Origin: Patescibacteria group bacterium | Lineage (GTDB): Bacteria > Patescibacteriota > WWE3 > UBA101185 > UBA10185 | NCBI GenBank assembly: GCA_016926555.1 | Contig: JAFGOI010000004.1 | Span: 776-64,775 of the forward strand | Reading direction: 5' to 3' | Length of the DNA: 64,000 bases | In this document: positions 41,134 through 62,207 of the stretch, one piece after another | How the letters are laid out: each line of letters opens with the position of its first letter | Numbering within the stretch: the stretch's first letter is position 1 | Made by a program: the position numbers and the translations under genes | The notes under the pieces: generated by a model | The model's database searches: none | What the model saw: only the letters and a program-made list of their open reading frames with translations | What the model was told of the DNA's origin: nothing

Positions 41134-41158
41134 TTATTTATTTAAATGAGGAGAAAAT

Positions 41159-42147: not shown

Positions 42148-42191
42148 AAATTTAGCCACCAGGCGCAACCACGAAGGGGGGTGTCTTTAAG

Positions 42192-42464
42192 ATGACAAAG
42201 TCAGATCTAATCGCAAAAGTTGCTGATGTAGCAGGAATGACAAAAGTTGACGCTGGAAAAGCAGTCGATGCTGTTTCCACAGTAGTCACAGATTCTCTGA
42301 GAAGAGGTGAAAAAGTTACCTGGACAGGTTTTGGAACATTCGAAGTTAGACGAAGAGCCGCGAGAATGGGAAGAAATCCTCAGACAGGTGCTCCTCTCCA
42401 TATTCCTGCAAGCAAGACTCCTGCCTTTAAAGCTGGAAAAGGTCTAAAGGATGCAGTAAAGTAA
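42192..42464 (+). CDS. hup: DNA-binding protein HU
   Basis: A 90-aa protein with [11 protein letters not shown]...[20 protein letters not shown]. Confidence 0.9.
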
Positions 42465-42492
42465 TCTTTTAGATTTTAATATGACTTTAAGT

Positions 42493-42519
42493 AGGGCGCC
42501 CGCTTTCAGCGGGCGCCCT
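42493..42519 (+). terminator. GC-rich hairpin terminator after hup
   Basis: AGGGCGCCCGC-tttca-GCGGGCGCCCT, a perfect 11-bp stem. Confidence 0.55.
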
Positions 42520-42600
42520 ATCTGTATTTAAATAGTGTATAAATTCTGAATGGTGCCCATTATATAGCAAACAACAATTACAAGTGCTAAAATCTAAGTC

Positions 42601-43524: not shown

Positions 43525-43588
43525 TGTTTTGATTTTCCTTATATATTATGTAATAATTGCGTCAACAATTTATATATTTAATTAAATT

Positions 43589-43613
43589 GGGTGGGTTTTA
43601 TCCCGCCTTTTTT
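43589..43613 (+). terminator. Rho-independent terminator
   Basis: GGTGGG-tttta-CCCGCC followed by TTTTTT. Confidence 0.6.
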
Positions 43614-43664
43614 GATTAGGTATCTTGCCTTTAAAGCAAAATAATTGATGATATAATTTGAAAT

Positions 43665-44891: not shown

Positions 44892-44919
44892 CATCAAGGT
44901 TGTTCTATACAATTAAAGT

Positions 44920-46416
44920 ATGGCTAAAAAAGCTGAGAATACAAGTAAAGACATTACAAGACCGCCCATTGTTACAGTTATGGGACATGTTGATCATGGG
45001 AAAACCAGCATTCTTGATGCAATCAGAAAAACAAATATTCAAGGCGGTGAATATGGGGGAATAACCCAGCATATTGGTGCTTATCAAATAATTCACGCTA
45101 ATAAAAAAATAACTTTTATAGATACGCCTGGGCACGCTGCGTTTACTCAAATGAGATCTCGAGGGGGGAAAGCGGCAGATATAGTTGTATTGGTTGTTGC
45201 GGCGGATGAAGGTGTAAAACCACAGACAAAGGAAGCAATATCTCACGCGAAAGTAGCGGGCGCTCCGATAATTGTAGCAATAAACAAAATGGATAAAGCG
45301 GGAGCGGATCCTCAGAAAGTTAAACAGGGTTTAGCTCGGGAGAGTGTATTGACTGAAGACTGGGGGGGCGATGTTATTAGTGTCAATGTTTCAGCTAAGA
45401 CAGGAGAAGGATTGGGCGATTTATTGGATGCTATTCTGGTTTTAGCTGAAGTGATCAATATAGCCGGAGATAAGAATGGAGAGCTGGAGGCAGTGATAAT
45501 AGAATCAAAAGTCGACAGGAAAAGGGGAGTTGTAGTTTCTGGCATTATACGCAACGGAACTTTGTCTCTTGGAGATGAGGTTGTAGCAAGTGGCCTGGAC
45601 GCCAAGATTAAGTCTATTGGTGACGATAAGGGTGAGAGGCTTAAGTCAGCGACATTATCCACGCCGGTGGAAATCCTAGGTTTTAAAGACACACCACATG
45701 TTGGCGATCTGATAGTGAAAAAAGGGAGTGATCTTGAAGAACTTTCTATAGATGAAGGAAGAGAAGAGATTATTGGTAAAGATGCTAAAAAAACCATATC
45801 ATTGGTTTTGAAGACTGATACACAGGGTACTCTGGAGGCTGTAAAAGGTAGTTTGGCCGATTTAATAACTTCCTCAATTGAGGCTACTTATGCACTGAAA
45901 TTTGTTCATACTGCAACAGGCGATATATCGGAATCTGATGTTATGTTAGCAAGTAGTACAGACGGTGTTGTTATTGGATTTAATGTGAGACTGCCTAGTA
46001 GTGTTAGTGATTATGCCGATTCGCAAAGGGTTGTGATAAGAGTCTACAAAACGATATATGAACTTATAGATGACGCGAAAGATCTGCTTGAAGGTACAGC
46101 GAGTAAAGAGGAGGCTAAAATCAAGGGTAGAGCGCAGATTCAGAAGACATTTAAACTGCCATCCGGGGATGTGATAGCGGGATGTAAGGTGTTAGCGGGA
46201 GCGGTAAAAGAAGGTTCGAGGATTAGTCTGTATGATAAAGATCCGGCGGATTTAACCGAGGAAGATGTCCCCATATATACCGGTGTAATTAAGAAAATTA
46301 AGCACAAAAAAGATGATGTGTCTATGGCAGGAAAAGATACGGAATGTGGGATATTGTTAAAACCGAAATTTGAAGGATTGCTAAAGGGATTGTGGGTAGA
46401 AGTGGATCGCCTTTGA
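44920..46416 (+). CDS. infB: Translation initiation factor IF-2, short form starting at the G domain
   Basis: GHVDHGKTS, DTPGH, NKMD. 498 aa with no N-terminal extension. Confidence 0.9.
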   Translation: MAKKAENTSKDITRPPIVTVMGHVDHGKTSILDAIRKTNIQGGEYGGITQHIGAYQIIHANKKITFIDTPGHAAFTQMRSRGGKAADIVVLVVAADEGVKPQTKEAISHAKVAGAPIIVAINKMDKAGADPQKVKQGLARESVLTEDWGGDVISVNVSAKTGEGLGDLLDAILVLAEVINIAGDKNGELEAVIIESKVDRKRGVVVSGIIRNGTLSLGDEVVASGLDAKIKSIGDDKGERLKSATLSTPVEILGFKDTPHVGDLIVKKGSDLEELSIDEGREEIIGKDAKKTISLVLKTDTQGTLEAVKGSLADLITSSIEATYALKFVHTATGDISESDVMLASSTDGVVIGFNVRLPSSVSDYADSQRVVIRVYKTIYELIDDAKDLLEGTASKEEAKIKGRAQIQKTFKLPSGDVIAGCKVLAGAVKEGSRISLYDKDPADLTEEDVPIYTGVIKKIKHKKDDVSMAGKDTECGILLKPKFEGLLKGLWVEVDRL

Positions 46417-46474
46417 CACTATAGGCCAGTGATGATATAATTCGGTAACTCTAATTTGGAAAACGTATATTTTT

Positions 46475-47146
46475 TTGCCCTTAAATATGACAAATAAAGT
46501 AGTTGAGAGTACAGACAATTTAATAACAGAATTGATCCAAAATGCGGTAAATGTTGCAGTTATACCATCAAAAGTTGCCGGTGCGGATGCTTTTACTGCA
46601 GGTATTGGTCTTTACTATTCTTTAAAGCTGAACGGTAAAAAGGTCTCTTTTGTATACCCAGGCAAGATACCGGAAGGTTTTGAAAATTTGATTGATGTTG
46701 AGGAAGTTATGTCTGATATTAAGAGAAGATCTTTAATTGTGTCTATAGATTATTCTAATATTCCTGCGACAAAAGTTCACTACACAACCAAAGATGATGT
46801 GTTAAAGCTTGTCCTCAGTCCTGTAAGTAAAGATTTTGATCTCGGCAGAATATCTACTGAGTTAAAAGGATTTGATTTTGATTTGATTTTCACTGTCGGA
46901 GCGCAAGATCTAAATGATTTTGGACAGACTTACAGGGAGTTGCAAAGAGAATTTGGTGCCGCCAAAATTGTAAATTTGGATAATCATAATATAAATCAGA
47001 GATTTGGGACTGTGGATATAGTTGATACTAGTGAACAAGGATTGTGTCTTTTAGTGCTAAATAAGCTTGCTAGATGGGGATTAAAGGTGGACTACGTTTC
47101 AGCAGAGGCGTTGTTGAGGGGAATTTCTAGTACGAAACTCAAGTAA
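46475..47146 (+). CDS. DHH-family (NrnA-like) N-terminal domain protein. Catalytically degenerate and lacking DHHA1.
   Basis: An NrnA-like N-terminus (IPSKVAGADAFTAGIGLYYSLKLNGKKV), but DGD becomes GAD and DHH becomes DNH (NLDNHNIN). Only 223 aa. Confidence 0.4.
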   Translation: MPLNMTNKVVESTDNLITELIQNAVNVAVIPSKVAGADAFTAGIGLYYSLKLNGKKVSFVYPGKIPEGFENLIDVEEVMSDIKRRSLIVSIDYSNIPATKVHYTTKDDVLKLVLSPVSKDFDLGRISTELKGFDFDLIFTVGAQDLNDFGQTYRELQREFGAAKIVNLDNHNINQRFGTVDIVDTSEQGLCLLVLNKLARWGLKVDYVSAEALLRGISSTKLK

Positions 47147-47190
47147 TAGTTGCAATTTAAGTAATGTTTTGTTAACATTCATTAGCAGTT

Positions 47191-47460
47191 ATGGCTTTGA
47201 ATAAAGGAAAAAAGACAAAAATAATAAAGGATAACAGGTTACACGATGATGATACTGGCTCTCCCGAAGTCCAGGTTGCACTATTGTGTGAAAAGATAGA
47301 TAAGTTGTCTGATCATTTGAAAAGCCATAAGAAGGATCATCACTCGCGAAGAGGACTCCTACAAATGGTTAATAAAAGAAGGAGATTGCTCGCGTATTTG
47401 AAAAGAAAAGATTCCGAGAGATACAACTCTTTAGTTGAGAAACTCGAACTGTCAAAGTAA
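47191..47460 (+). CDS. rpsO: 30S ribosomal protein S15
   Basis: An 89-aa protein with [24 protein letters not shown]. Confidence 0.9.
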
Positions 47461-47569
47461 TAATTTGGATTAGGTGGTATCGGGTTAGGGTATAGGCTAT
47501 TGTGCATTAAATCAATGATTTTTTGCATAGTATTTTATTCCTTAACTCAGATAAATCTCCTACTAAAAA

Positions 47570-49792
47570 ATGGAAATAATTAAAAAAGAAATAATGTTTA
47601 ATGGAAAAAGTTTAAGCTTAGAAACTGGGGAATTAGCGGCGCAGACTAATTTAGCAGTGAAGGCATCCTATGGAGATACAGTAATACTGGCAACAGTTGT
47701 GTCAGGCGATCCAAATCCTGAGGTTGACTTTTTTCCCCTTACGGTAAATTACCAAGAAAAGTTATATGCTGGGGGAATAATAAAATCCTCTAGGTTTGTT
47801 AAAAGAGATGGTCGCCCCACAGATGCCGCGATAATAACAAAAAGAATGGTGGATCATGCGATCCGACCTTTGTTTCCCTCCGATTACATGGACGAAGTGC
47901 AGTTAGTTCTAACTGTATTGTCTCTTGACGAGAATTCCGATCCGGAATTTCTTGCGATGGTCGCATCTTCTGCAGTTTTATATGCTTCAGATGTCCCTTG
48001 GGACGGACCGATGGTAAGCGTGCGAGTGGGTTATATTGATAACAAATACGTAATCAATCCTACAAGAGATGAATTGGAAGAGAACAGCGATTTGGATATG
48101 ATGGTCTCTTTTGTTGGAGACGATAAAAAGTTTCTAGCTGTTGAAGCCGAGTCAAATATACTACCTGAAGATACTATTTTCGGTGCAATAAATTATGCTA
48201 GAGATAGTGTTGATGATGTGTATAAATTAATCAAAGAGTTTGCCTCTGAAGTTAACCCAGATGATAAAAAATATGAGTATGAATCTCAAAAAATCGGAGA
48301 AGATGTACTTGTTGCCGTTCAGGAAATTGCCAAAGATGAGGTTAGGAAAATAATCAGAATGGAATATGACAAAACCGAATTAAGTGACAAAAGAGATGAT
48401 CTGAAAGAAAAAGTATTAACCGAGTTGGAAGGTAAATATAAGAAATCCCTAATGATAAGAGCGCTTGAGGAATTAGAGAAGCATGAAATACAGCATTTAG
48501 TACTAGATGAGGAACATAGGCCAGATGGAAGAGGTATAGAAGAGATTAGAAATATAGAATGCAAGGTTAATTTATTGCCCAGAACCCACGGGTCCGGTTT
48601 GTTTACGAGGGGACTTACACAGGTGTTGACAGTTGTAACTTTAGGGTCTCCCTCAATGGAATTACTTATTCAGGATATGTACGGGGAAACTAATAAAAGA
48701 TTTCTTCACTACTATACATTTCCGCCATTCTCGACAGGGGAAACAGGCCGAGTGGGAGGTTTTCCAAGGAGTAGAGAAATAGGTCACGGGATGCTGGCTG
48801 AGCGTGCGTTGAGACCTGTAATACCCGATCAGAAGGAATTTCCCTATACTATATTACTAGTTTCTGAAACGTTATCCTCTAGCGGTTCTTCTTCGATGGC
48901 GTCTGCGTGCGGATCTACATTGGCCTTAATGGATGCTGGTGTGCCGATTAAGGATAAAATCGCAGGGGTTGGAGTTGGTCTGATAACAAATGATGACTTT
49001 TCGAAATACAAAATTATGACAGACCTTGCGTATATGGAAGACGCTTTTGGATTCCTAGACTTTAAGATGACAGGTACAAGAGAAGGTGTAACGGCAATTC
49101 AGTGTGATATGAAAGTAAAAGGTATACCTATGGATATATTGTCTCAGGTTATAGATCAATCTAAGAGGGGCCGGTTAGTCGTTCTTGGTAAAATGGAGAA
49201 AGCTATAAATGCGCCCAGGGACACTGTTTCGCAGTATGCTCCTAAGATGCTTACTACAAAGGTAGCCGAGGATCAAATAGGAAAGGTTATTGGCTCAGGT
49301 GGGAAGACAATAAAAGAAATTCAGGAACGGACAAATACGGAAGTGTTTATCGAAGATGACGGTAGCGTAGTTATAGCTTCACCGGATATTGCGAATGCCC
49401 AGAAAGCTTTAGACATAATAAATGGAATGACGCGAGAACTGGAGATAGGTGAAGTGTTTGAAGGTCGTGTAAAGGAAATACTTGATTTTGGGGCGTTAGT
49501 GGAGATATTTCCGGGCAGAGTGGGGTTGCTTCATGTGAGTGAGATCTCCCATTCTTATGTCGAAAAAGTTGAGGATCATGTAAAAGAGGGAGATATAGTT
49601 AAAGTAAAGATAGTTGGATTCGGTGAGAATGGAAAGATAAGTCTGTCAATGAAAGCTTTGGAATCAAATCCTAATACAGGTGACCAAAGACACGGGGATC
49701 AAAGAAGGGATTCGCATGGAAGTGGAAGTAGAAACATTCGAAGTGACCGAGGAAGAAGAGATCCCAAACGCAGAGACCGCAGGCGTGATTAA
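47570..49792 (+). CDS. pnp: Polyribonucleotide nucleotidyltransferase (PNPase) with an Arg/Asp-rich C-terminal tail
   Basis: Two RNase PH domains, a KH domain (VIGSGGKTIKEIQE) and an S1 domain. The tail reads GDQRHGDQRRDSHGSGSRNIRSDRGRRDPKRRDRRRD. Confidence 0.9.
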   Translation: MEIIKKEIMFNGKSLSLETGELAAQTNLAVKASYGDTVILATVVSGDPNPEVDFFPLTVNYQEKLYAGGIIKSSRFVKRDGRPTDAAIITKRMVDHAIRPLFPSDYMDEVQLVLTVLSLDENSDPEFLAMVASSAVLYASDVPWDGPMVSVRVGYIDNKYVINPTRDELEENSDLDMMVSFVGDDKKFLAVEAESNILPEDTIFGAINYARDSVDDVYKLIKEFASEVNPDDKKYEYESQKIGEDVLVAVQEIAKDEVRKIIRMEYDKTELSDKRDDLKEKVLTELEGKYKKSLMIRALEELEKHEIQHLVLDEEHRPDGRGIEEIRNIECKVNLLPRTHGSGLFTRGLTQVLTVVTLGSPSMELLIQDMYGETNKRFLHYYTFPPFSTGETGRVGGFPRSREIGHGMLAERALRPVIPDQKEFPYTILLVSETLSSSGSSSMASACGSTLALMDAGVPIKDKIAGVGVGLITNDDFSKYKIMTDLAYMEDAFGFLDFKMTGTREGVTAIQCDMKVKGIPMDILSQVIDQSKRGRLVVLGKMEKAINAPRDTVSQYAPKMLTTKVAEDQIGKVIGSGGKTIKEIQERTNTEVFIEDDGSVVIASPDIANAQKALDIINGMTRELEIGEVFEGRVKEILDFGALVEIFPGRVGLLHVSEISHSYVEKVEDHVKEGDIVKVKIVGFGENGKISLSMKALESNPNTGDQRHGDQRRDSHGSGSRNIRSDRGRRDPKRRDRRRD

Positions 49793-49840
49793 TATTAGTA
49801 TATTGAGGGGCTTTACATGGTACTATATAAGTAATCTAGT

Positions 49841-50743
49841 ATGAATAGAGTCTGCCCAAAATGCGAATCGGAACTAGGGTCGTATGACCATCATTTTTGT
49901 ACATCCTGTGGTACTGAATTGCCGGAAGAATTGATATCGAAAGATGAGTCGTTTCGGCAGGTAAATCATCTTAGTTTGTCCACTCAAAGTAACCCCGACG
50001 AACAAAAAAATGTACATGGGTACTTTAATAGACTTAGAAGCTCTTTAGGAGATCGAGTGATTGTTGGTGTAGCAGTTCTGTTGCTAATGCTTGTTGCGTT
50101 TACAATATATCTGGTAGTTACGCAAGCGACTCTGTCCGCGAAAAGAAGTGTAGCGCCTGTTGAAAACAAGTCTGCAAAAGTGGACACAGGTCTTATGGGA
50201 GATGAGATGATCGCTAAATATGTACCTTATGAAGCCGATGTATATATTGAAACGGCAGATAGCCAGTTACTTGGCAGGTTATTTTTGGAGTTTGATCCTG
50301 GTTATTATACGTTGGTTCAGGATATTGAGAAAAACACGAAATCGCATACTGGACTATATATACTTGGTCTGTCTTCAGAACCTTCTATGACGATTATTAT
50401 TTTTCCTGAAAAAGAAGATTTTGGTGTAGATGGACTCAAGTTGGATGGATATGACTGGCTTGTTGCGCGTGAAGTAGAGAAATCAATAGTTATATCTACT
50501 AGAGAAGATAATATTTCTAATACGCTGTACGCAAAGTCCGGGTTAGCTAAAAATTTGATACAACACCCAAAATTTGTTACATATACCAAACAAAATATCC
50601 CGGAGGGCAAAATCATAATTTATACATCTTCTTCGGAGGTTAAGGATATGCTTATTATGTTATTATCAAAATCTGATTCGGATACGATTAGATCTATTTT
50701 GGAGGACTATAAACAAACTGAGTCGAATTTTGTTATATTGTGA
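49841..50743 (+). CDS. Hypothetical protein: N-terminal zinc ribbon (CPKCES...CTSCG), one TM helix and an extracytoplasmic domain
   Basis: A 300-aa protein. Its stop overlaps the start of the Lon-like ATPase gene by 14 nt. Confidence 0.45.
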   Translation: MNRVCPKCESELGSYDHHFCTSCGTELPEELISKDESFRQVNHLSLSTQSNPDEQKNVHGYFNRLRSSLGDRVIVGVAVLLLMLVAFTIYLVVTQATLSAKRSVAPVENKSAKVDTGLMGDEMIAKYVPYEADVYIETADSQLLGRLFLEFDPGYYTLVQDIEKNTKSHTGLYILGLSSEPSMTIIIFPEKEDFGVDGLKLDGYDWLVAREVEKSIVISTREDNISNTLYAKSGLAKNLIQHPKFVTYTKQNIPEGKIIIYTSSSEVKDMLIMLLSKSDSDTIRSILEDYKQTESNFVIL

Positions 50744-51809
50744 GAATATGGCTACAAAGGATTTTGTATTTGAAGAACTAAAAACACTATCAGACAAAGT
50801 ATCTGGTGCTCCCGGTATGCCCGAAGATTTGCAGGAGAAGTTAAATCAGATGATCCAGCGATTGGAGAGAATGGCTAACATGGGGCACTATGCGGCTGAG
50901 TTTGACACTTTGTCTAGGTATATTGAGATTGTTGCGTCTATTCCCTGGGAGGAAAGAACAGAGGATCTGCTTGATATTAATAGGGCCAGAGAACTTCTTG
51001 AGAAACATCATTACGGAATGCAGTCCGTGAAAGAGAGGATTATCGAGTATCTCGCATCTTTGATATTACTAAAAAAAAGGGGGAAAGAGGCCATTTCGCG
51101 GACTCCCATATTACTGCTAGTGGGGCTTCAGGGGGTCGGGAAAACAACTCTTGCTATTTCCGTTGCTGAAACTTTGGGGAGGAAATTTGTGCGAATTGCC
51201 ATGGGAGGTATTGGTTCAACATTGGAGCTTCGAGGTAAAAGTAAGGCGCTTCCCAATGCGGAACCGGGACAGTTAGTAAAAGCGTTAATAAAAGCCGGTA
51301 CAAGAAATCCGGTTATTCTTCTTGACGAAATAGAAAAGGCCAGCGGTGAAAAGGGTTTATTATCGGATATTATGGCTATAATGCTTGAAATACTAGATCC
51401 CAGTCAAAATAAAACCTTTAGAGATCATTATCTGGATTATCCTTTGGATCTCTCCGAGGTCCTATTTGTTTGTTCAGCGAACAACACCGGAACTATATCA
51501 GCAGCTCTTATGGACAGGATGGAGCTGATTAAGATGCCTTCTTATACTGATAATGAAAAGATTGTAATAGCTAGAGATTATCTTATGCCTCAGATACTTG
51601 AGAGATCTGGCCTTGAACCCGGAGAACTTGAGATACAGCCTGATTTATGGCCAGGTGTTGTAAGACCCTTTGGATATGATTCTGGTATTAGAAGCTTAGG
51701 TAGAACTCTAGAGTCTATTTGTAGAAAGGTTGCTAAAGAAATTGTCGAAGGGAAAACGCAGAGAGTGTATTTAACTGAAGAGAATTTAAAGCACTATTTA
51801 CCGCAATGA
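50730..51809 (+). CDS. Lon-like AAA+ ATPase module without an S16 protease domain
   Basis: Collinear with the LonA helical linker and AAA region. It has HYGMQSVKERIIEYLA, Walker A GLQGVGKTTL, Walker B ILLDEIEKA, and the arginine-finger/sensor region LMDRMELIKMPSYT. It ends after the alpha-helical subdomain. Confidence 0.6.
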   Translation: MLYCENMATKDFVFEELKTLSDKVSGAPGMPEDLQEKLNQMIQRLERMANMGHYAAEFDTLSRYIEIVASIPWEERTEDLLDINRARELLEKHHYGMQSVKERIIEYLASLILLKKRGKEAISRTPILLLVGLQGVGKTTLAISVAETLGRKFVRIAMGGIGSTLELRGKSKALPNAEPGQLVKALIKAGTRNPVILLDEIEKASGEKGLLSDIMAIMLEILDPSQNKTFRDHYLDYPLDLSEVLFVCSANNTGTISAALMDRMELIKMPSYTDNEKIVIARDYLMPQILERSGLEPGELEIQPDLWPGVVRPFGYDSGIRSLGRTLESICRKVAKEIVEGKTQRVYLTEENLKHYLPQ

Positions 51810-52330
51810 GAGAAATATCATTAGAAGAGTTAGATAAAGTCAGAAAGTCCGGTTATAGACCAGGTGTAGTATGCTGTTTTGTTCATGGAAGGAAATTGCT
51901 ACTCTTCTATAAGCGAGATTATGGTATTTGGCTTTTGCCACAAGGGGGTATAGAAAACGATGAGTCTGTTAAAGAAGCTTATAAACGTGAAATTACTGAG
52001 GATGTGGGGAGTGATTTGTTATCAAAGTGCGAGAATGTCCTGACTTATATTGGGGAAGGTGATATTGAGTTTAATCCAAATAGCAAGGGAATAAGAGATC
52101 TTAAAACAGATGCTGGTGAGCATGTGAGTATGAAAGGCAAAAAATACTTCTTTTTTGTTATAAATGTAAATGATCCTGTGTTTGATATTAAGAATTCTGA
52201 GTTTAACGAATACGTCTGGGCAAATTACGAACAGGCTCTTTTTTTGTTTGGTAAGAATTATCAGGTAAATAAGAAAAAATTAACTTTGAATGCTTTAGAA
52301 CAGCTAAAAAGTAAAGGTTTGGTAGAGTAG
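51806..52330 (+). CDS. NUDIX hydrolase
   Basis: The Nudix box GGIENDESVKEAYKREITEDVG. Confidence 0.7.
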   Translation: MREISLEELDKVRKSGYRPGVVCCFVHGRKLLLFYKRDYGIWLLPQGGIENDESVKEAYKREITEDVGSDLLSKCENVLTYIGEGDIEFNPNSKGIRDLKTDAGEHVSMKGKKYFFFVINVNDPVFDIKNSEFNEYVWANYEQALFLFGKNYQVNKKKLTLNALEQLKSKGLVE

Positions 52331-52335
52331 ACATT

Positions 52336-52968
52336 ATGAATAATGTGGACATGTTGAAAGAAATTGAAAAAAATGTGAAAGGATGTCAAAAATGCCGCTT
52401 GTATAAGACAGCACTAAATCCTGTCCCAGGTGAGGGAAGCAAGTTTCCTAAGATTGTGTTTGTTGGGGAAGCACCCGGAAAATATGAAGATGAAAGCGGG
52501 CGCCCGTTTGTTGGAAGGGCAGGGAAGTTTCTAGATACTTTATTAGGAAAAATTGGATATAAAAGAGAGGAAGTTTGGATCGGCAATGTCATAAAACATA
52601 GGCCTCCAGAAAATCGCGATCCTCTGCCCGATGAAATTGCGGCTTGTAAAGAGTATTTAACTTTACAATTACAAATCCTCTCCCCCACTCTTATTGTCAC
52701 TTTAGGAAGATTTGCAATGAATTACTTTTACCCTGAAGGGAAAATATCCAGGGACAGGGGAAGATTAATCAGAGCAGGAGGATATAATATATTTCCCATA
52801 TACCACCCTGCGGCGGGTCTTAGGAATCCGAGAATGCTGGAAGCTTTGGAAGAGGATTTTATGAGAATTCCAGCAGTACTTAAAAAGATCAATCAGGGTG
52901 ATTTTGAGAGGGATTCCGAAGTAAAAGAAGACGATAAGAGTGCGGATGGGCAGCTGCACCTTTTATAA
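52336..52968 (+). CDS. Uracil-DNA glycosylase, family 4
   Basis: GEAPG..E...G.PFVGRAGK and an HP...R C-terminal motif. Confidence 0.8.
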   Translation: MNNVDMLKEIEKNVKGCQKCRLYKTALNPVPGEGSKFPKIVFVGEAPGKYEDESGRPFVGRAGKFLDTLLGKIGYKREEVWIGNVIKHRPPENRDPLPDEIAACKEYLTLQLQILSPTLIVTLGRFAMNYFYPEGKISRDRGRLIRAGGYNIFPIYHPAAGLRNPRMLEALEEDFMRIPAVLKKINQGDFERDSEVKEDDKSADGQLHLL

Positions 52969-52980
52969 GGCAACAAGTGT

Positions 52981-54681
52981 ATGAAATTTAGTATTGCAAA
53001 AGATAATATGAATGATAAAAAAGTACTAAGAATAATTAATTTAGGTGGAACTGAAACGGTTACTAAAAACCTTACTGTGTATGAATATGATGATGAGATA
53101 ATAGCTGTGGACTGTGGCGTGTATTTTCCGGATAGTGAAATGCACGGGGTTGATGTAGTAATTCCAGATTTTACTTACCTTGAAGAGAATTCCCACAAGT
53201 TTAAGGCGCTGTTTATAACTCACGGGCATGAAGACCATTTTGGCGCGGTGCCTTATTTTTTGGATAGGTTTGATGTGCCTATTTATGCGGATAAACTTGT
53301 TCAGGGATTTTTACGGGAAAGATTTAAGGATAAAGATTCTAAGAAGTACGCGGAAAAGGTACGGTTTGTTGATTTTGAAAGCAGTACGCCAGAGGTCCAC
53401 CTGAAGCATTTTAAGGTCTCCGCTTTTGGAGTAAATCACTCGGTTCCGGATAGCAAGGGTTTAGCCATTAGAACTCCGGAAGGTCTGGTTTTGCATATTG
53501 CGGATTTTAAAGTTGATTGGACTCCTGTTATAGATCCTCCTATTGAAATTGACAAAATAGCCAATTTTGGAAATGAAGGTGTTCTTTGTCTATTGTCGGA
53601 CTGTCTTGGAGTAACTAAAGAAGGTATGTCTGCATCAGAAGTGACTATAGAGCCGACTTTTCTTGATCTATTTGAAAAAGCTAAGGGAAGACAGCTTATG
53701 ATAACTACTATATCCTCAAATCTTTCAAGGATGTATCAGATAATTAAAACCGCAGAGCATTACGGTAGAAAAGTTGTTCTGGGGGGAAGATCCATTCAGC
53801 AGAGTGTTAGTGTGGCTCAGAACTTGGGATATCTTCCCTTTCCTGATGATCTTTTTGTAAGTGAAAAGAGTGCACAAAGCCAAAATCAGGGAAATATAGT
53901 ATATATAATAGCCGGATGTTATGGACAGGTCGGTTCAGCTTTGGAGAGAGTAAGTAGAGATGAAAATGAAAGGATATATTTGGAAGATAACGCGATGATC
54001 GTGTTTTCAGCGGATCCTAACCCTCCGGGGACTGATGTTATGGTGGAAAAAGTCATGGATCGGTTGACACTAAAAGGTGCGGAAGTTGTTTATTCAGATA
54101 TCCAAGATAATTTACACATTTCGGGGCATGGCACAAAGGGTGATTTGACTTTAATTGCCCAATTGGCAAAACCAAAATACTTCATTCCGATTGGCGGAAC
54201 TATAACAAAAATGAGAGCCTATAGAAATATGCTTGTGGAGTTGGGGATTGAAAAAGAGAGAGTGTTTGAAAATCTTGAGGGTGAATCAGTGGAGTTTTCA
54301 AACGGCGAGGCAACTGTTGGATCTACTATTAAAACAGAATTGGTTATGATAGGCTCTGATACTGGAGAAATAAGCCCAATTGTGATGAAAGATAGAGAAC
54401 AATTATCTTCAGAAGGAGTATTTGTTGTAGTTGTTCCAAGAGATAAAAATGGCAATCTGGTACCGGAAAAATCTGAAATTATCACACGCGGGTTCATTTA
54501 TGTTAAAGAATCCCCAGAATTAATGCAGCAATACAGAGATTTCGCCGCTAAATCAATAAATAAATGGCTTGATAAAGATAAAGATTGGAATGAGTTGAAA
54601 AGAAAGGTCGAACTTGATTTTGAGAAGTACTTGTATAAGAAATCAAGAAGAAGGCCTATGGTTTTGGTACATAGTATCTAA
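52981..54681 (+). CDS. rnj: Ribonuclease J (metallo-beta-lactamase/beta-CASP)
   Basis: HGHEDH, the beta-CASP region and a C-terminal domain. 566 aa. Confidence 0.85.
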   Translation: MKFSIAKDNMNDKKVLRIINLGGTETVTKNLTVYEYDDEIIAVDCGVYFPDSEMHGVDVVIPDFTYLEENSHKFKALFITHGHEDHFGAVPYFLDRFDVPIYADKLVQGFLRERFKDKDSKKYAEKVRFVDFESSTPEVHLKHFKVSAFGVNHSVPDSKGLAIRTPEGLVLHIADFKVDWTPVIDPPIEIDKIANFGNEGVLCLLSDCLGVTKEGMSASEVTIEPTFLDLFEKAKGRQLMITTISSNLSRMYQIIKTAEHYGRKVVLGGRSIQQSVSVAQNLGYLPFPDDLFVSEKSAQSQNQGNIVYIIAGCYGQVGSALERVSRDENERIYLEDNAMIVFSADPNPPGTDVMVEKVMDRLTLKGAEVVYSDIQDNLHISGHGTKGDLTLIAQLAKPKYFIPIGGTITKMRAYRNMLVELGIEKERVFENLEGESVEFSNGEATVGSTIKTELVMIGSDTGEISPIVMKDREQLSSEGVFVVVVPRDKNGNLVPEKSEIITRGFIYVKESPELMQQYRDFAAKSINKWLDKDKDWNELKRKVELDFEKYLYKKSRRRPMVLVHSI

Positions 54682-55134
54682 TCTATTTAGCTAGGTTCTG
54701 AACAGGCTACAGACGCTAAAGGCTTGGGTCCAGGTACTAATCGGAATTTACAGCGCGACCTATAGTATTGACTTCTCGGATAATTTATACTATAATTAAC
54801 GTTGCAATGTTAGTATAAGGAACATTCTAGAGTTCAAGTTTGAAATGACACACCCAGTGAAATATTATGGTGGTAATGAAAAACCATGCACATTTAACAA
54901 TATATTATGACAGAGAGATACATAATCAAGGTACCGGGAAATAAGTAATAAAAAACAAACTTTGTTATTTATTTTCCGGCATCTTAGAGATATAGACCTT
55001 ATTTTTCCATGGAGGTGGAAATAATAAGAGCGGGTTAGTTACACCGCGCTTCTCTAGGAGAAACCTTGTTGTGTGTAGTTTAGCCGGAAATACACGATAT
55101 TACATTACGTTACGATCAGAAAAAAAGGAGTACA

Positions 55135-55875
55135 ATGAGAGCGAAAATCGTTGTTGTGTTGGTTTTGTTGTCCCTGGTCACCATTCCCGTCCTTGCGGAT
55201 CCTCCCGCGTCTAGCGGAATCCTGCCGAGGCAGGAGGATGTCCCGGGCTTTTGCGAGCACGGGGCAGTGGTTGGGAGGGAGGGGACCCTCGTGTACCGAG
55301 GACCGGGTACCTATTATGGTACCTGGGGCACTTTGCCCGCAGGGGCGGTGGGGATTGTCGACACCGACGGGGATTGGTACCGCATCTCGTACGACTATGA
55401 GATGTGGGTTCCGGGATACGCTGTCGTATCCCACAGCGGGTGTAACATTCCCCCGGAGTATGGGTTTGGTTACCCCCACCCGGTTTCGCTTCCAGCTCCT
55501 CTGCAAGGAGCAGAATGGAAAAGGATCTGGGAGCTTCTCCCCGAGAACTACTGGCAAGAAGGAATGCCGATAAGTTTTCGGGTGAGCGTTGCCGGGGAGG
55601 ATGGGGAGACCATTATGGAGTATAGCGGAGGATTTTCTCCTAACTCACTGGTGCCCGTCCCCAGCAGTGTTCGCGGTTATGTGGTGCGGATAACCGCCGC
55701 AGTTAACTTTCCTCCCCCAGGGGAGGCTCGGGTTTACTGGACCAACCAGGTCGAATGGGCGGTCTTAGACCCCGAAGCCGGTTGGATCAACCTCCCGCTA
55801 GAAAGCCAAGATAGGCTCTCTTTGGCGGGGGAGGATCAGGATTGGACGGACGGGGTCTACTGGTGGAGGTGGTAA
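55135..55875 (+). CDS. Secreted SH3b-domain protein encoded by a GC-rich, compositionally foreign ORF
   Basis: An SD aaaggag precedes the ATG. A signal peptide MRAKIVVVLVLLSLVTIPVLA and an SH3b-like segment GTLVYRGPGTYYGTWGTLPAGAVGIVDTDGDWYRISY follow. Third codon positions are mostly G/C, unlike every other gene in the window. Confidence 0.55.
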   Translation: MRAKIVVVLVLLSLVTIPVLADPPASSGILPRQEDVPGFCEHGAVVGREGTLVYRGPGTYYGTWGTLPAGAVGIVDTDGDWYRISYDYEMWVPGYAVVSHSGCNIPPEYGFGYPHPVSLPAPLQGAEWKRIWELLPENYWQEGMPISFRVSVAGEDGETIMEYSGGFSPNSLVPVPSSVRGYVVRITAAVNFPPPGEARVYWTNQVEWAVLDPEAGWINLPLESQDRLSLAGEDQDWTDGVYWWRW

Positions 55876-55900
55876 GCCACAAAGCTAGATAGACCCCCAT

Positions 55901-55970
55901 GAGCTACGGTTCCCTGTTCTTAAGTGTAAACACAATTGGTGACTCACACACTGAACAGGAACCGTAGCTC
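55901..55970 (+). terminator. Long inverted repeat (18-bp stem, 34-nt loop) immediately downstream of the GC-rich gene. Possibly a terminator.
   Basis: GAGCTACGGTTCC(C)TGTTC ... GAACAGGAACCGTAGCTC followed by TTTACGTTTTTC. Confidence 0.4.
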
Positions 55971-59627: not shown

Positions 59628-62207
59628 TTAGTCTTTGTCATCCTCAAAAACTTCAGTTCCAAGATCTAATATATCTCCTTTTTTTATCTCTTCCGTTAAA
59701 AATTTCGTAGCCAGATAGGATTCGACTGAATCTTCGATTACTCTAGCCAGTGGGCGTGCCCCCCATTCTGGGTTGTAGCCCCGTTTCATGAGTTCCTCAA
59801 TTAGAACCTCTTGAAATGTGACTTTTACGCCTTTTTCTTCGGCGATTTCCTTAACCTTTGATAGAAGTAATAAGGCTATATCCCGAACGTTTTCTTTTGT
59901 TAGAGGATGAAATACGATTATCCCGGAGAATCTGTTTAGGAATTCGGGCGCGAAGTGATTTCTAACTTCAGTCATCGCTGTGTCCTTCATTTTTTCGTAA
60001 TCGCCATTGTCGCGAAAAACCTCCTGGATGGCTCTGGTTCCCACATTGCTTGTAGCTATAATTATTGTATTCGAGAAATCAATGACTGTGCCCATAGAGT
60101 CGGTGACATGTCCCTCGTCGAGTATTTGTAGGAAAGTGAGAAGGATATTTGGATGCGCTTTTTCTATCTCGTCTAGCAAAATGAGTGCAAAAGGCCGGGA
60201 CCTGACTTTATCTGTTAAAATACCTCTTATGCTTCCATCCGGCGCTCCTATTAATCTATTGAGACTGTCCAGTTGCTGATATTCACTCATATCGAGTCTT
60301 ATCATTGTTTTTTCGTCCCCAAAATACGTTTTAGCGAGTGCTTTCGCGGTTTGTGTTTTTCCGACACCGGTTGTGCCTATAAATAAAAAGCTTGCGATTG
60401 GTTTATCCTCATTTCGTATTCCTACTCTGGCTCTTTTTAGCGCGGATGAGATTTGTTTTAGCGCATGATCTTGTCCAATTACCATATTTTTCATTTCTTT
60501 ATTGATCGTGAGAAGTTTTTTGGCTTCATCTTTGGTTACAGATTCAACCGGTATTTTTGTCATATCGGCAACTTCTTTTGAGATCTCATCTTTATTGAGA
60601 TATTTATTATCATTGGCAACTCTTGTGGCGGCACGGCTAATAATATCTATAGCCTTGTCAGGTAGTACTCTTTCGTGGATTAATTTTTCCGAAAGTTTTA
60701 CGGTTTCTGTAAGAGCGGGATAAGTAATAAAGACGCCATGTCGCGATTCCAGTTCCCTAGCCTTTTCTTTTAATATTTCTATTGTGTCGTCAAAAGAAGA
60801 TTCGGAAATTTCTATAACCTGGAATAATCTTGTAAAAGCTCCGTTTGGTTCAATAAATTTTCGATAGTTTCTTATTGTTGTGGCGCCAATAACTTGGACC
60901 TGTTCACTTGCGATTAGAGGTTCCAATATAGTGAAGATTGCGGAGGTTTCAGCTTGTTGATCGCCTGTTCCCGCGACAACATTATGGATTTCATCAAGAA
61001 AAAGAATTATATCCCGCGATCTCTTTATTTCGTTGATTACATTATTAAGTTTTTCAGCGATTTGCCCCGCTGTAGCTGTGCCAGCTATAATTCCACCTAT
61101 TTCCAAGCTTACAAGCCTTCTGTTTTTTAGAGATTTATATTTGGTTCCTCGAATGATTCTGTGAGCAATTCCCTGTATTATAGATGTTTTTCCGCTGCCT
61201 GCTTCACCTATAATAAGTATGTTGTCTTTAGAACCAGTAAGCATTTCAGCAATTTGTCTGATTTCTTCTTCTCTTCCTACGATGTTTTTTAAGCGTCCTT
61301 TCTGCACTTCCTTTGTGTAATCAGTGGAAACTGAGTCCAGAAAGGGGGTAACCACACCGGTCATTCCTTTGCCTATACCGCCCGTGTAAAGCACTTCGTA
61401 ATCGTCTTGCCAAATGTAAATTTTGGCTAGTTTTTCTCTTTCTTTAACATTCCATTCGGATGATTTTTCTAATATTTCTATTTTGCTGTCATGAGAAGCT
61501 AACAGATTCTCAATATTCGGTGAGGTAGATAAAATAGCCGTGAATAAATGTTCAAATTCAATATACCGCGCTTCATGAGCTTTGGCATACTCAAACATTT
61601 TTTTTTCAACATCTTCTGAATTTAGTTCAGAGAGTTTTGCTAAATCAGTGAGAAAGCCCATGGTGTTAAGTTCGCATCTTTGAAGTAAAAGAACGACGGG
61701 GCTTTTTTTGGTGAGTTTATTTAGACCAAACTTGAAGTTACTCTTAATAAGAGTGTATGCAGTTCCGGTATCGGGCCTTACGCATTTTTTCCAGTCCTTG
61801 TAGTTTTCGACTTGATGTAATTTCTTATCCGGAATATTCAGAGTTTGATATGTCCAAATAAAGTATGCTATCGCAATAATAGGTATCAGGAAAACGTGGA
61901 TTTCATAGAGTGCATAAAAAGGCAAGGTCCACCACGATATAGGAAGTATGAGAGTTAAAGCAGTAAGCATAACCATAATTACTAAACCTGAGATAATCTC
62001 CATTATTCTTATGAAAAGGCCGATAATACGTCCTATAACCGTGTAATCGCCGAAAAGGGGAGTAAATAGGAGCCGCGCATTTAAAGTGAATGAGAGCTCA
62101 TTGTTAACCAAAATCATTATTCTTTTAAAAACAGTGAATATGCGTTTCGGTGTATCTACAGCCCACCATATTAGGAATTTATGAGGGCTTTTCGGCAGCT
62201 GAACCAT
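59628..62207 (-). CDS. ClpA/ClpC-like double-AAA+ ATPase with an N-terminal 4-TM membrane domain
   Basis: The D1 domain (GREEEIRQIAEML...IIGEAGSGKTSI) and D2 domain (VIGQDHALKQI...FIGTTGVGKTQTAKALA...LLDEIEKAHP) are present. The first ~150 aa are hydrophobic helices. No IGF/IGL tripeptide is found at the ClpP-loop position. Confidence 0.8.
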   Translation of the reverse strand: MVQLPKSPHKFLIWWAVDTPKRIFTVFKRIMILVNNELSFTLNARLLFTPLFGDYTVIGRIIGLFIRIMEIISGLVIMVMLTALTLILPISWWTLPFYALYEIHVFLIPIIAIAYFIWTYQTLNIPDKKLHQVENYKDWKKCVRPDTGTAYTLIKSNFKFGLNKLTKKSPVVLLLQRCELNTMGFLTDLAKLSELNSEDVEKKMFEYAKAHEARYIEFEHLFTAILSTSPNIENLLASHDSKIEILEKSSEWNVKEREKLAKIYIWQDDYEVLYTGGIGKGMTGVVTPFLDSVSTDYTKEVQKGRLKNIVGREEEIRQIAEMLTGSKDNILIIGEAGSGKTSIIQGIAHRIIRGTKYKSLKNRRLVSLEIGGIIAGTATAGQIAEKLNNVINEIKRSRDIILFLDEIHNVVAGTGDQQAETSAIFTILEPLIASEQVQVIGATTIRNYRKFIEPNGAFTRLFQVIEISESSFDDTIEILKEKARELESRHGVFITYPALTETVKLSEKLIHERVLPDKAIDIISRAATRVANDNKYLNKDEISKEVADMTKIPVESVTKDEAKKLLTINKEMKNMVIGQDHALKQISSALKRARVGIRNEDKPIASFLFIGTTGVGKTQTAKALAKTYFGDEKTMIRLDMSEYQQLDSLNRLIGAPDGSIRGILTDKVRSRPFALILLDEIEKAHPNILLTFLQILDEGHVTDSMGTVIDFSNTIIIATSNVGTRAIQEVFRDNGDYEKMKDTAMTEVRNHFAPEFLNRFSGIIVFHPLTKENVRDIALLLLSKVKEIAEEKGVKVTFQEVLIEELMKRGYNPEWGARPLARVIEDSVESYLATKFLTEEIKKGDILDLGTEVFEDDKD

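What the first reader, a model, noticed from the sequence alone, without database searches (positions are those of the whole stretch)
49841..51809. Zn-ribbon membrane protein translationally coupled to a protease-less Lon ATPase module
The gene at 50730..51809 is collinear with the LonA helical linker plus AAA+ region. It has Walker A GLQGVGKTTL, Walker B ILLDEIEKA and sensor-2-like LMDRMELIKMPSYTDNEKIVIARDY. It stops where the S16 peptidase domain would begin and also lacks the LonA N-domain. Its start overlaps the stop of a 300-aa protein with an N-terminal C4 zinc ribbon (CPKCES...CTSCG), a TM helix and a ~200-aa extracytoplasmic domain. A membrane-tethered zinc-ribbon protein paired with a stand-alone Lon-type unfoldase looks like a two-component remodelling or signalling module, for example an anti-sigma-like or substrate-delivery pair. 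A NUDIX gene follows with a 4-nt overlap.
Basis: partly seen in the sequence, partly recalled or inferred. Interest (0 to 1): 0.55.

Follow-up and report, generated by a model that had tools for sequence, protein, structure and literature searches.

The report
Protease-less Lon ATPase with membrane partner
A tiny-genome (Patescibacteria/WWE3) bacterium carries a very strongly conserved copy of the Lon motor that has lost both its substrate-binding head and its protease. In this lineage the gene sits directly behind a fast-evolving zinc-ribbon membrane protein gene, which suggests a non-degradative job for a motor known only as part of a protease.

Summary
49841..50743 encodes a 300-aa protein with a C4 zinc ribbon, one TM helix and an orphan C-terminal domain. 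The next gene is collinear with LonA model positions 256-571 of 795 and has no N-domain and no S16 protease.

Two corrections apply. The homology-supported start is ATG 50748 (353 aa), 4 nt after the upstream stop.

This is not a frameshift. Thousands of homologues share the ~353-aa form, and no S16 domain occurs in the window or within ±10 kb in 39 related loci. The ATPase belongs to a Patescibacteria-wide paralogue clade separate from canonical LonA. One genome carries both on one contig.

It keeps every ATPase motif but has a remodelled pore loop 1 (RRTY[VI]G to SKALPN). In 16 WWE3 genomes it is 69% identical on average, more than PNPase or RNase J.

The zinc-ribbon partner is only 21% identical across the same genomes. 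It lies immediately upstream in 21 of 25 WWE3-type loci, with junctions of -8 to +15 nt, but is absent from every other lineage that has the ATPase.

The likeliest reading is a stand-alone, non-proteolytic Lon-type remodelling ATPase with a lineage-specific, possibly membrane-tethering neighbour. The anti-sigma idea has no support.

The parts
49841..50743 (+). Gene for a 300-aa bitopic membrane protein: N-terminal C4 zinc ribbon, linker, one TM helix, orphan C-terminal domain
   Evidence: ORF. An identical protein in NCBI is named 'TFIIB-type zinc ribbon-containing protein'. Orthologues occupy the same position in 21 of 25 WWE3-type loci.
49853..49912 (+). C4 zinc ribbon (C5-P6-x-C8 ... F19-C20-x-x-C23-G24), inferred to be cytoplasmic
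   Evidence: C5, P6, C8, F19, C20, C23 and G24 are invariant in 16 orthologues. Sub-threshold Pfam DZR/Zn_Ribbon_TF hits occur in 8-14 of 16 members. This is the most conserved part of the protein, at 44% mean identity.
50057..50113 (+). Single transmembrane helix (residues 73-91)
   Evidence: Hydropathy scan: mean Kyte-Doolittle 2.89, and no second TM in any of 16 orthologues. AF2 models a long helix at residues 54-98.
50216..50740 (+). C-terminal alpha/beta domain of about 175 aa, unknown fold family, inferred to be extracytoplasmic
   Evidence: AF2 pLDDT is about 70-85 over most of residues 127-300. There is no Pfam hit, no PDB sequence hit, and the best Foldseek hit is TP0453 at E=0.056, which is not significant.
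50748..51809 (+). Gene for the 353-aa protease-less, N-domain-less LonA-type AAA+ ATPase. The ORF opens mechanically at TTG 50730.
   Evidence: Residues 9-351 align to BsLon 3M6A chain residues 8-338 (E=1.8e-80) and to the engineered EcLon 235-584 fragment 6N2I.
50748..51092 (+). N-terminal helical region, equivalent to the C-terminal part of the LonA HI(CC) domain (the NTD-3H bundle)
   Evidence: Aligned to LonA model positions from 256 onwards. AF2 helices at 9-19, 26-45, 49-64, 77-87 and 92-110. Nomenclature from PMC6722904 and PMC7239648.
51123..51146 (+). Walker A, GLQGVGKT (K132)
   Evidence: The motif is GLQG[VI]GKT in 119 of 120 close homologues, against GPPGVGKT in canonical LonA.
51234..51269 (+). 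Remodelled pore loop 1, GKSKALPNAEPG. L168-P169 sit where LonA has Y398-I399.
   Evidence: Alignments. Across 120 WWE3 homologues the position is F, L or Y followed by P. In the wider family it is E/Q/H/S/N/R. The roles of Y398, I399, R395 and R396 come from PMC7239648.
51315..51338 (+). Walker B, ILLDEIEK (D193, E194)
51480..51518 (+). Sensor-1 N245 to Arg finger R257 (SANNTGTISAALMDR)
   Evidence: N245, D256 and R257 invariant. EcLon N473 and R484 from PMC6722904.
51600..51761 (+). Lon-type AAA+ lid domain, including sensor-2 R315 (GIRSL, nt 51690-51692)
   Evidence: Pfam Lon_lid, E=2.3e-11. R315 is invariant. EcLon R542 from PMC6722904.
51806..52330 (+). NUDIX hydrolase gene overlapping the ATPase stop by 4 nt (ATGA). 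It is present in only some related loci.
   Evidence: Pfam NUDIX, E=1.3e-10, and weak RppH-like NCBIfam hits. Present in L003 but absent in L001.

Best explanation
The gene at 50748..51809 encodes a member of a Patescibacteria-wide paralogue family derived from LonA. The family keeps only the helical NTD-3H bundle and the AAA+ module (large subdomain plus Lon lid). It has lost the substrate-binding N domain and the S16 peptidase.

Shown here:
- The short form is the conserved form.
- It forms its own clade apart from canonical LonA.
- All ATP-binding and hydrolysis residues and the inter-subunit Arg finger are intact.
- Pore loops 1 and 2 are remodelled.
- The protein is under very strong purifying selection, comparable to a ribosomal protein.

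Inferred:
- It assembles into a Lon-like ring and works as an ATP-driven, non-proteolytic remodelling (chaperone-like) factor rather than as a protease.
- In the WWE3 lineage it is co-transcribed, and probably translationally coupled, with a fast-evolving single-pass membrane protein.
- That protein's cytoplasmic zinc ribbon is the only part that could touch the ATPase. It may tether or regulate the ATPase at the membrane, partly standing in for the lost N domain. It is an optional, lineage-specific accessory, not an obligatory second component.
For: - Domain content: TIGR00763 positions 256-571 only, plus Pfam AAA and Lon_lid, with no LON N-domain and no Lon_C.
- Not an artefact: 4254 homologues. 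The best 120 are 353-416 aa at 70-82% identity. All 39 Patescibacteria loci carry ORFs of about 352-389 aa, apart from one cut by a contig end, while the three non-CPR hits are full LonA of 772-803 aa.
- No S16 or LonA N-domain by tblastn in the window or in those loci. No S16 by Pfam in any window ORF of 120 aa or more. None in 8.5 kb beyond the window.
- Separate clade in a neighbour-joining tree. Locus L036 carries a canonical LonA (N-domain plus RGHRRTYVGAMPG) 8.5 kb from its short paralogue; the two are only 38% identical.
- Motifs: Walker A and B, sensor-1 N245, R257 and R315 are invariant. Pore loop 1 changes from RRTY[VI]G to SK[AS][FLY]P, and the 'RGDP' of pore loop 2 is lost.
- Conservation in the same 16 genomes: Lon-AAA 69%, PNPase 60%, UDG 59%, RNase J 53%, FtsK 53%, S15 74%.
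- Partner: upstream in 21 of 25 WWE3-type loci, with junctions of -8 to +15 nt in 17 of 18 loci. The zinc ribbon is its most conserved part (44%).
- The engineered EcLon 235-584 fragment, almost exactly collinear with this protein, crystallises as an open helical hexamer (PMC6722904).
Against: - No biochemical or interaction evidence exists. Oligomeric state and substrate are inferred from homology only.
- Pore loop 1 lacks the Tyr-hydrophobic pincer in the window protein (L-P), and the position is not conserved across the family. Canonical polypeptide threading is therefore uncertain.
- Whether WWE3 genomes also hold a full LonA or a separate S16 peptidase could not be checked. About 72 kb of this 288-kb contig was seen.
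- The partner is missing in four close loci and in all other lineages, and tight gene spacing is general in these genomes.
- The AF2 models are of only moderate quality (pLDDT 61 and 65).
Confidence: 0.5

Rival explanations
1. Dedicated two-component membrane module. The zinc-ribbon protein senses something outside the cell or delivers substrates, and the Lon-type ATPase is its obligate cytoplasmic effector.
For: The pair is adjacent in 21 of 25 WWE3-type loci. Junctions are -8 to +15 nt, including six ATGAxTGA overlaps. The N-in topology places the conserved zinc ribbon in the cytoplasm.
Against: The ATPase family persists without the partner in L015, L017, L039, L042 and all 13 Paceibacteria-type loci. 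There is a three-fold rate asymmetry. No sigma factor or other signalling gene is nearby. The Cys pattern is not that of ZAS anti-sigma factors. Neighbouring genes are all equally tightly packed.
Confidence: 0.25
2. Split Lon protease. The ATPase works in trans with a separately encoded S16 (or other) peptidase elsewhere in the genome.
For: No direct evidence. Most of the genome lies outside the roughly 72 kb examined. JGI annotates homologues as 'ATP-dependent Lon protease'.
Against: No S16 in the window, in L043, or within ±10 kb in 39 loci. The short family is an old separate clade with altered pore loops rather than half of a recently split gene. L036 has a canonical LonA as well as the short form.
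Confidence: 0.1
3. An ATPase linked to nucleic-acid or RNA-decay functions. The order pnp-[x]-lonAAA-(nudix)-udg-rnj-ftsK would then reflect a role with PNPase and RNase J or on DNA, as for RuvB in the same AAA+ clade.
For: The gene order is kept from WWE3 to Paceibacteria-type genomes at about 50% ATPase identity. The window has RNase Y, YmdB, NusA, IF2, S15, PNPase, NUDIX and RNase J in one co-directional array. The family's pore loop is not constrained to be aromatic.
Against: Inherited synteny in streamlined genomes needs no functional link. No nucleic-acid-binding domain or motif was detected. Some loci have a PfkB kinase instead of PNPase upstream.
Confidence: 0.1
4. A modulatory subunit that co-assembles with full-length LonA into mixed rings and tunes its activity.
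For: It co-occurs with a canonical LonA on one contig (L036). The short protein comprises exactly the ring-forming NTD-3H plus AAA+ part and keeps the Arg finger.
Against: The two L036 proteins are only 38% identical. Nothing is known about LonA in WWE3 genomes. There is no precedent in the papers searched.
Confidence: 0.08
5. Assembly or sequencing artefact, or a decaying pseudogene of lon.
For: None beyond the truncated architecture itself.
Against: The same length is seen in hundreds of independent assemblies at 70-82% identity. All catalytic residues are invariant. The protein is more conserved than PNPase. A NUDIX gene follows directly in frame-overlap.
Confidence: 0.01

Closest known systems
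LonA protease (endopeptidase La, TIGR00763; e.g. B. subtilis LonA 3M6A, E. coli Lon, Y. pestis Lon 6ON2)
   Same: Collinear with the NTD-3H/HI(CC) C-terminal part, the AAA+ large subdomain and the Lon lid. Identity is 40-45%. Walker A and B, sensor-1, Arg finger, sensor-2 and the PS1-beta-hairpin 'DHY' motif are kept. All top-50 Foldseek hits are Lon.
   Different: No N-terminal LON substrate-binding domain and no S16 Ser-Lys peptidase domain. The score falls below the family cut-off (337.6 against 608). Pore loop 1 RRTY[VI]G becomes SKALPN. Walker A changes from GPPG to GLQG. The pore loop 2 'RGDP' is lost. It forms a separate clade.
Engineered E. coli Lon fragment 235-584 (PDB 6N2I; PMC6722904)
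   Same: Almost exactly the same boundaries (query 9-351 against chain 9-339). The fragment binds ADP and packs as an open helical hexamer in crystals.
   Different: That fragment is a laboratory truncation of a protease. This is a natural, strongly conserved stand-alone gene product with altered pore loops.
Other Lon subfamilies (LonB, LonC, LonBA) and Lon-domain proteins (RadA/Sms, ComM, YlbL-type S16)
   Same: All are variations on the Lon module set. Archaeal LonB is membrane-anchored, which is a loose analogy to a membrane-tethered partner (author's knowledge; PMC9569914 abstract).
   Different: All of those retain the S16-type domain, and LonC instead degenerates the ATPase. Here the ATPase is retained and the protease is lost, which is the opposite trajectory.
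Stand-alone HCLR-clade AAA+ remodellers (ClpB, ClpX acting without ClpP)
   Same: A ring ATPase acting without an attached protease is the working model. A ClpB-type gene is also present in the window at 59628..62207.
   Different: Sequence similarity is only generic AAA+ (ClpA/ClpB NCBIfam hits of 16-31 bits). The protein has a single AAA+ module and no M-domain, zinc-binding domain or IGF loop.
Zinc-binding anti-sigma factors (ZAS) and other zinc-ribbon-TM sensors
   Same: The architecture is the same: an N-terminal cytoplasmic zinc-binding module, one TM helix, and an extracytoplasmic domain.
   Different: The Cys pattern is a CPxC...CxxC rubredoxin-type ribbon, not HxxxCxxC. No ECF sigma gene is in the window. 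There is no Pfam anti-sigma hit.

Membership tests
LonA protease (TIGR00763 / MEROPS S16) | N-terminal LON substrate-binding domain (PF02190) | tested here: not met
   The match to TIGR00763 starts at model position 256. There is no Pfam hit. tblastn with LonA N-domains finds nothing in the window.
LonA protease (TIGR00763 / MEROPS S16) | C-terminal S16 peptidase domain with Ser-Lys dyad (PF05362) | tested here: not met
   The match ends at model position 571 of 795, and the stop codon is followed directly by a NUDIX gene. tblastn with two S16 domains finds nothing in any frame of the window or the 39 loci. Pfam on all window ORFs of 120 aa or more finds none.
LonA protease (TIGR00763 / MEROPS S16) | Whole-protein score above the curated cut-off | tested here: not met
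   337.6 bits against a cut-off of 608.05 for TIGR00763, and 261.2 against 891 for NF008053.
LonA protease (TIGR00763 / MEROPS S16) | Pore loop 1 aromatic-hydrophobic pair (Y398-I399) flanked by tandem Arg (R395, R396) | tested here: not met
   The window has S-K-A-L168-P169. Relatives have F/L/Y followed by P. The wider family is not conserved at this position. Residue roles come from PMC7239648.
LonA-type AAA+ module (NTD-3H + AAA + Lon_lid) | Walker A, Walker B, sensor-1 Asn, Arg finger, sensor-2 Arg and the Lon-specific lid | tested here: met
   Pfam AAA, E=4.8e-18, and Lon_lid, E=2.3e-11, both above cut-off. K132, D193, E194, N245, R257 and R315 are invariant in 30 homologues. PDB phmmer E=1.8e-80 to BsLon. 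All top-50 Foldseek hits are Lon at E about 1e-19, though TM-scores are only 0.33-0.36 from a pLDDT-65 model.
LonA-type AAA+ module (NTD-3H + AAA + Lon_lid) | Hexameric ring assembly and ATP hydrolysis | not testable with these tools
   Only inferred, from the conserved Arg finger and from the EcLon 235-584 crystal packing.
Zinc ribbon (Pfam DZR / Zn_Ribbon_TF / Zn_Ribbon_1) | Two CxxC knuckles about 11-15 residues apart, plus a profile match above cut-off | tested here: inconclusive
   CPxC-x11-CxxC is invariant in 16 orthologues. Pfam scores are 16.7-20.7 bits, below cut-offs of 25-29, but recur in 8-14 of 16 members. Metal binding was not tested.
ZAS-type anti-sigma factor | HxxxCxxC motif and an adjacent ECF sigma factor gene | tested here: not met
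   The motif is absent. There is no anti-sigma Pfam hit. No sigma-70 family domain occurs in any window ORF scanned.
Known anti-phage defence systems (PADLOC) | A specific profile match of either protein | tested here: not met
   The zinc-ribbon protein has no hits. The ATPase has only generic AAA hits of 28.6 bits or less.

The most novel reading that the evidence does not exclude
The Lon motor has been repurposed in Patescibacteria into an essential-grade, protease-free AAA+ machine with a new pore chemistry (the conserved ...AEPGQ... loop). In WWE3 a zinc-ribbon single-pass membrane protein would replace the lost N domain in trans. That would make a membrane-tethered, non-degradative remodelling or signalling device with no described counterpart. 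Alternatively, the ATPase would act on RNA-decay or DNA machinery, as its CPR-wide synteny with pnp, rnj, udg and ftsK hints.
Probability: 0.2. Interest if true: 0.65.

Novelty: new variant of a known kind. Interest (0 to 1): 0.45.

Why it matters
Lon is known as a fused ATPase-protease. Claims that its ATPase has protease-independent, chaperone-like roles have rested on active-site mutants.

A natural Lon motor that lacks the protease and the N domain would be a clean system for asking what a Lon AAA+ ring does on its own. This one is conserved at near-ribosomal-protein level across a huge, poorly understood bacterial radiation.

It would also correct a common mis-annotation. JGI labels these proteins 'ATP-dependent Lon protease', which inflates the inferred proteolytic capacity of tiny-genome bacteria.

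The WWE3-specific zinc-ribbon neighbour offers a concrete hypothesis: membrane recruitment in trans.

Tried and rejected
- **Frameshift or split gene next door:** rejected. There is no S16 in any frame, and NUDIX follows directly.
- **Defence system:** rejected (PADLOC).
- **Anti-sigma module:** no sigma gene and the wrong Cys motif.
- **Fold of the zinc-ribbon protein's C-domain:** not assigned. Pfam on 16 members gave only zinc-ribbon hits. A PDB profile search gave nothing significant. The best Foldseek PDB hit was TP0453 at E=0.056 and TM 0.27-0.31.
- **Distant relative of the partner:** the 203-aa membrane protein upstream in L025 was tested and showed no similarity (hhalign probability 0.1).
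- **Co-variation with partner presence:** not informative. W297 to I/T/V occurs in all WWE3-type sequences with or without the partner.
- **Literature:** seven searches found nothing on protease-less Lon in CPR, WWE3 or Saccharibacteria. The RAAC2 WWE3 genome paper does not mention Lon or proteases, and its supplements are not held.
- **Extending the contig:** added only about 8.5 kb of new sequence, at one end, with no Lon or S16.
- **Promoter/terminator scan:** no convincing signal between PNPase and RNase J. Strong promoter-like sites occur only at 46413 and 54768, consistent with one long transcription unit but not proof of it.
Full report
**1. Observation**

The window is a ~38% GC, co-directionally packed stretch of a Patescibacteria genome of the WWE3 (Katanobacteria) type. 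The two proteins are 100% identical to NCBI entries from a 288-kb 'Patescibacteria group bacterium' contig.

ORF 49841..50743 encodes a 300-aa protein. It has the following parts:
- A CPKC...CTSC zinc ribbon at residues 5-23.
- A single hydrophobic helix at residues 73-91.
- A tail of about 200 aa.

Pfam gives only sub-threshold zinc-ribbon matches.

The next ORF opens mechanically at TTG 50730. The ATG at 50748 lies 4 nt after the upstream TGA. It gives the 353-aa length that 55 of the 120 best homologues share, and a matching N-terminus.

Pfam finds AAA (E=4.8e-18) and Lon_lid (E=2.3e-11). NCBIfam TIGR00763 'endopeptidase La' matches only model positions 256-571 of 795, at 337.6 bits against a cut-off of 608.

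Against solved structures, residues 9-351 align with B. subtilis LonA (3M6A, E=1.8e-80). They also align, almost end to end, with the engineered E. coli Lon 235-584 fragment 6N2I.

The NUDIX gene starts inside an ATGA overlap at 51806.

- The start codon, and hence the claimed overlap with the upstream stop.
- The 'sensor-2' label. LMDRME holds the Arg finger (R257 = EcLon R484). Sensor-2 is R315 in GIRSL (= EcLon R542). The numbering is from PMC6722904, mapped through.

**2. Not a frameshift or a split gene next door**

tblastn with the S16 domains and the N-domains of two full-length LonA proteins was run against the window and all fetched loci. It found S16 only in the three non-Patescibacteria LonA genes themselves.

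Pfam scans of every window ORF of 120 aa or more found no Lon_C and no other AAA+ protease. The 8.5 kb beyond the window's right end has none either.

The short form is also the conserved form:
- There are 4254 homologues. The best 120 are 353-416 aa at 70-82% identity.
- In a scan of one genome per species, all 39 Patescibacteria loci carry ORFs of about 352-389 aa, apart from one cut by a contig end.
- The only long hits (772-803 aa, each with clpX upstream) are from Bacteriovoracaceae and Lachnospiraceae.

**3. What the ATPase is**

An exhaustive search of 50%-identity cluster representatives shows a handful of short clusters (351-507 aa). Some have low-complexity N-terminal extensions. They sit among thousands of canonical ~800-aa LonA proteins at 40-45% identity.

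In a neighbour-joining tree of the shared region, all but one of the short proteins group together, apart from the canonical LonA clade. The exception is the borderline P0176. The canonical clade includes a canonical LonA from a Patescibacteria contig.

That contig (L036) carries a canonical LonA N-domain plus an AAA module with RGHRRTYVGAMPG. It lies 8.5 kb from the contig's own short paralogue, and the two are only 38% identical. In at least one genome, therefore, the short protein is an additional paralogue and not half of a split lon.

The motif comparison gives the following:

| Feature | Canonical LonA | Short family / this protein |
|---|---|---|
| Walker A | GPPGVGKT | GLQGVGKT |
| Walker B | present | ILLDEIEK, kept |
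| Sensor-1 | Asn | N245, kept and invariant |
| Arg finger | Arg | R257, kept and invariant |
| Sensor-2 | Arg | R315, kept and invariant |
| Pore loop 1 | RGHRRTY[VI]GAMPG (near-invariant) | RG[KR]SK[AS][F/L/Y]P.[AS]EPG in WWE3; L168-P169 in the window; E, Q, H, S, N or R elsewhere |
| Pore loop 2 | contains 'RGDP' | 'RGDP' lost |

In canonical Lon, Y398 and I399 grip the substrate, and R395 and R396 brace the loop (PMC7239648).

In the same 16 WWE3 genomes the mean pairwise identities are as follows:

| Protein | Mean pairwise identity |
|---|---|
| S15 | 74% |
| Lon-type ATPase | 69% |
| PNPase | 60% |
| UDG | 59% |
| RNase J | 53% |
| FtsK | 53% |

The ATPase is therefore under housekeeping-grade constraint.

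An AF2 model (pLDDT 65) hits only Lon structures (top 50, E about 1e-19). TM-scores are low (0.33-0.36), so the model adds little beyond the sequence evidence.

**4. The zinc-ribbon partner**

Sequence searches find almost no relatives. The same position in related contigs nevertheless holds a 300-325-aa protein with the same layout.

An alignment of 16 such proteins has C5, P6, C8, F19, C20, C23 and G24 invariant, one TM helix, and a weakly conserved C-terminal domain.

A profile of that alignment hits the ORF immediately upstream of the ATPase in 21 of 25 WWE3-type loci where the upstream region is present. Two of those hits are fragmented. It hits nothing in L015, L017, L039 and L042, and nothing in the 13 Paceibacteria-type loci. 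In those loci the upstream genes are PNPase itself, a PfkB kinase, an LPXTG-like protein, or an unrelated 203-aa membrane protein.

Junctions between the two genes range from an 8-nt overlap to a 15-nt gap in 17 of 18 loci.

Mean pairwise identity of the partner is 21.8%. By region it is 44% for the zinc ribbon, 14.5% for the cytoplasmic linker and 21% for the C-domain.

The C-domain has a moderately confident AF2 model (pLDDT about 70-85). No significant match was found in Pfam, in PDB sequences or in PDB folds. Topology (N-in, C-out) is inferred from the need of a zinc ribbon for the cytoplasm. The positive-inside bias is weak (46 against 34 K+R).

**5. Context**

The order S15-PNPase-[x]-LonAAA-(NUDIX)-UDG-RNase J-FtsK is kept from WWE3 to Paceibacteria-type genomes. 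The zinc-ribbon gene is the WWE3 filling of slot [x].

In the window the array begins further upstream, with RNase Y, YmdB, DnaJ, NusA and IF2. Consensus scans show strong promoter-like sites only at 46413 and 54768, and nothing convincing in between.

This is compatible with one long transcription unit. It also means that tight spacing is the rule here and is not a special mark of the pair.

**6. Mechanism**

Shown:
- An intact ATPase site and Arg finger.
- Loss of both the substrate-recognition domain and the proteolytic domain.
- Remodelled pore loops.
- Very strong conservation.
- Paralogy to LonA.
- A lineage-restricted, tightly juxtaposed membrane neighbour.

Inferred:
- The protein forms a Lon-like ring. 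The collinear EcLon fragment packs as an open hexamer.
- It acts as a non-proteolytic, ATP-driven remodelling factor.
- In WWE3 the cytoplasmic zinc ribbon may tether or regulate it at the membrane.

I put about 0.5 on this overall picture and about 0.25 on an obligate two-component module. Smaller weights go to a trans-acting peptidase, a nucleic-acid-linked role, or mixed rings with LonA. An anti-sigma analogy has no support, and neither protein matches a defence system.

**7. Comparison with known families, and novelty**

The protein works like, and descends from, the LonA AAA+ module. It fails three defining features of the LonA protease family: the N domain, the S16 domain and the curated score. 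It also fails the pore loop 1 signature. It should not be filed as a Lon protease, although JGI annotations do so.

Other Lon subfamilies (LonB, LonC, LonBA) keep the protease. This family keeps the motor and drops the protease.

No Pfam or NCBIfam model is specific for it. Seven full-text searches found no description of it, within the limits of the held library.

I rate it a new variant of a known kind. Interest is moderate, at 0.45. It is a clear, well-supported family-level observation with an open function. The specific 'paired module' reading that drew attention to it is only weakly supported.

**8. Limits**

- No tool for complexes was available.
- Two structure libraries were unavailable.
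- Only about 72 kb of the 288-kb contig was seen.
- Whether WWE3 genomes carry a full LonA or a separate S16 peptidase remains untested.

Noticed in passing
window 55050-55950 (ORF 55135..55875, +): A sharp GC island of 54-62% GC against a background of about 38%. It holds a 246-aa ORF with a signal-peptide-like N-terminus, rich in W, Y, P and G, with no Pfam hit. It sits between RNase J and FtsK, which are directly adjacent in related contigs L001 and L003. It looks like a recent foreign insertion or an assembly chimera.
   Followed up: partly
window 39646-54681; loci L017, L025, L036, L042: RNA-decay and processing genes form one co-directional array: RNase Y, YmdB, DnaJ, NusA, IF2, a DHH-like protein, S15, PNPase, NUDIX (weakly RppH-like), UDG and RNase J. 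The core order pnp-[x]-lonAAA-(nudix)-udg-rnj-ftsK is conserved across distant Patescibacteria classes.
   Followed up: partly
L036:1-1545 (-) and L036:9896-11065 (+): A canonical LonA (N-domain plus an AAA module with RGHRRTYVGAMPG, running off the locus) lies 8.5 kb from the short protease-less paralogue on the same contig. The contig is Patescibacteria-like in gene content and synteny but is labelled 'Pseudomonadales' in its record.
   Followed up: partly
loci L011, L016-L018, L021-L023, L030, L031, L033, L034, L036, L037, L042: Several MAG records that carry the WWE3- or Paceibacteria-type gene and synteny are titled 'Candidatus Saccharibacteria', 'Pseudomonadales' or 'Methylococcaceae'. 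The record taxonomy looks unreliable for these bins.
   Followed up: no
window 21451-23574 (-): A class II aminoacyl-tRNA synthetase (Asp/Lys/Asn type, with an OB anticodon domain) carries a C-terminal HD-domain extension of about 200 aa. A second synthetase of the same class, without the extension, lies at 32093-33385.
   Followed up: no
window 46475-47146 (+): A 223-aa protein with only a weak DHH match (E=3e-4) sits between infB and rpsO, where rbfA and truB usually lie. A no-Pfam protein of 215-245 aa occupies the same slot in the related contigs L001-L004.
   Followed up: no
window 24368-26290 (+), 20171-21412 (-), 35006-36139 (-): Three large ORFs (640, 413 and 377 aa) have no Pfam match at E<=1e-4.
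   Followed up: no
proteins P0143, P0146, P0150, P0153, P0176: Some members of the short Lon-AAA family carry N-terminal extensions of 100-330 aa that are rich in Q, P, S and T and of low complexity. P0157 has a C-terminal low-complexity tail of about 200 aa. None has a zinc ribbon or a protease domain.
   Followed up: partly
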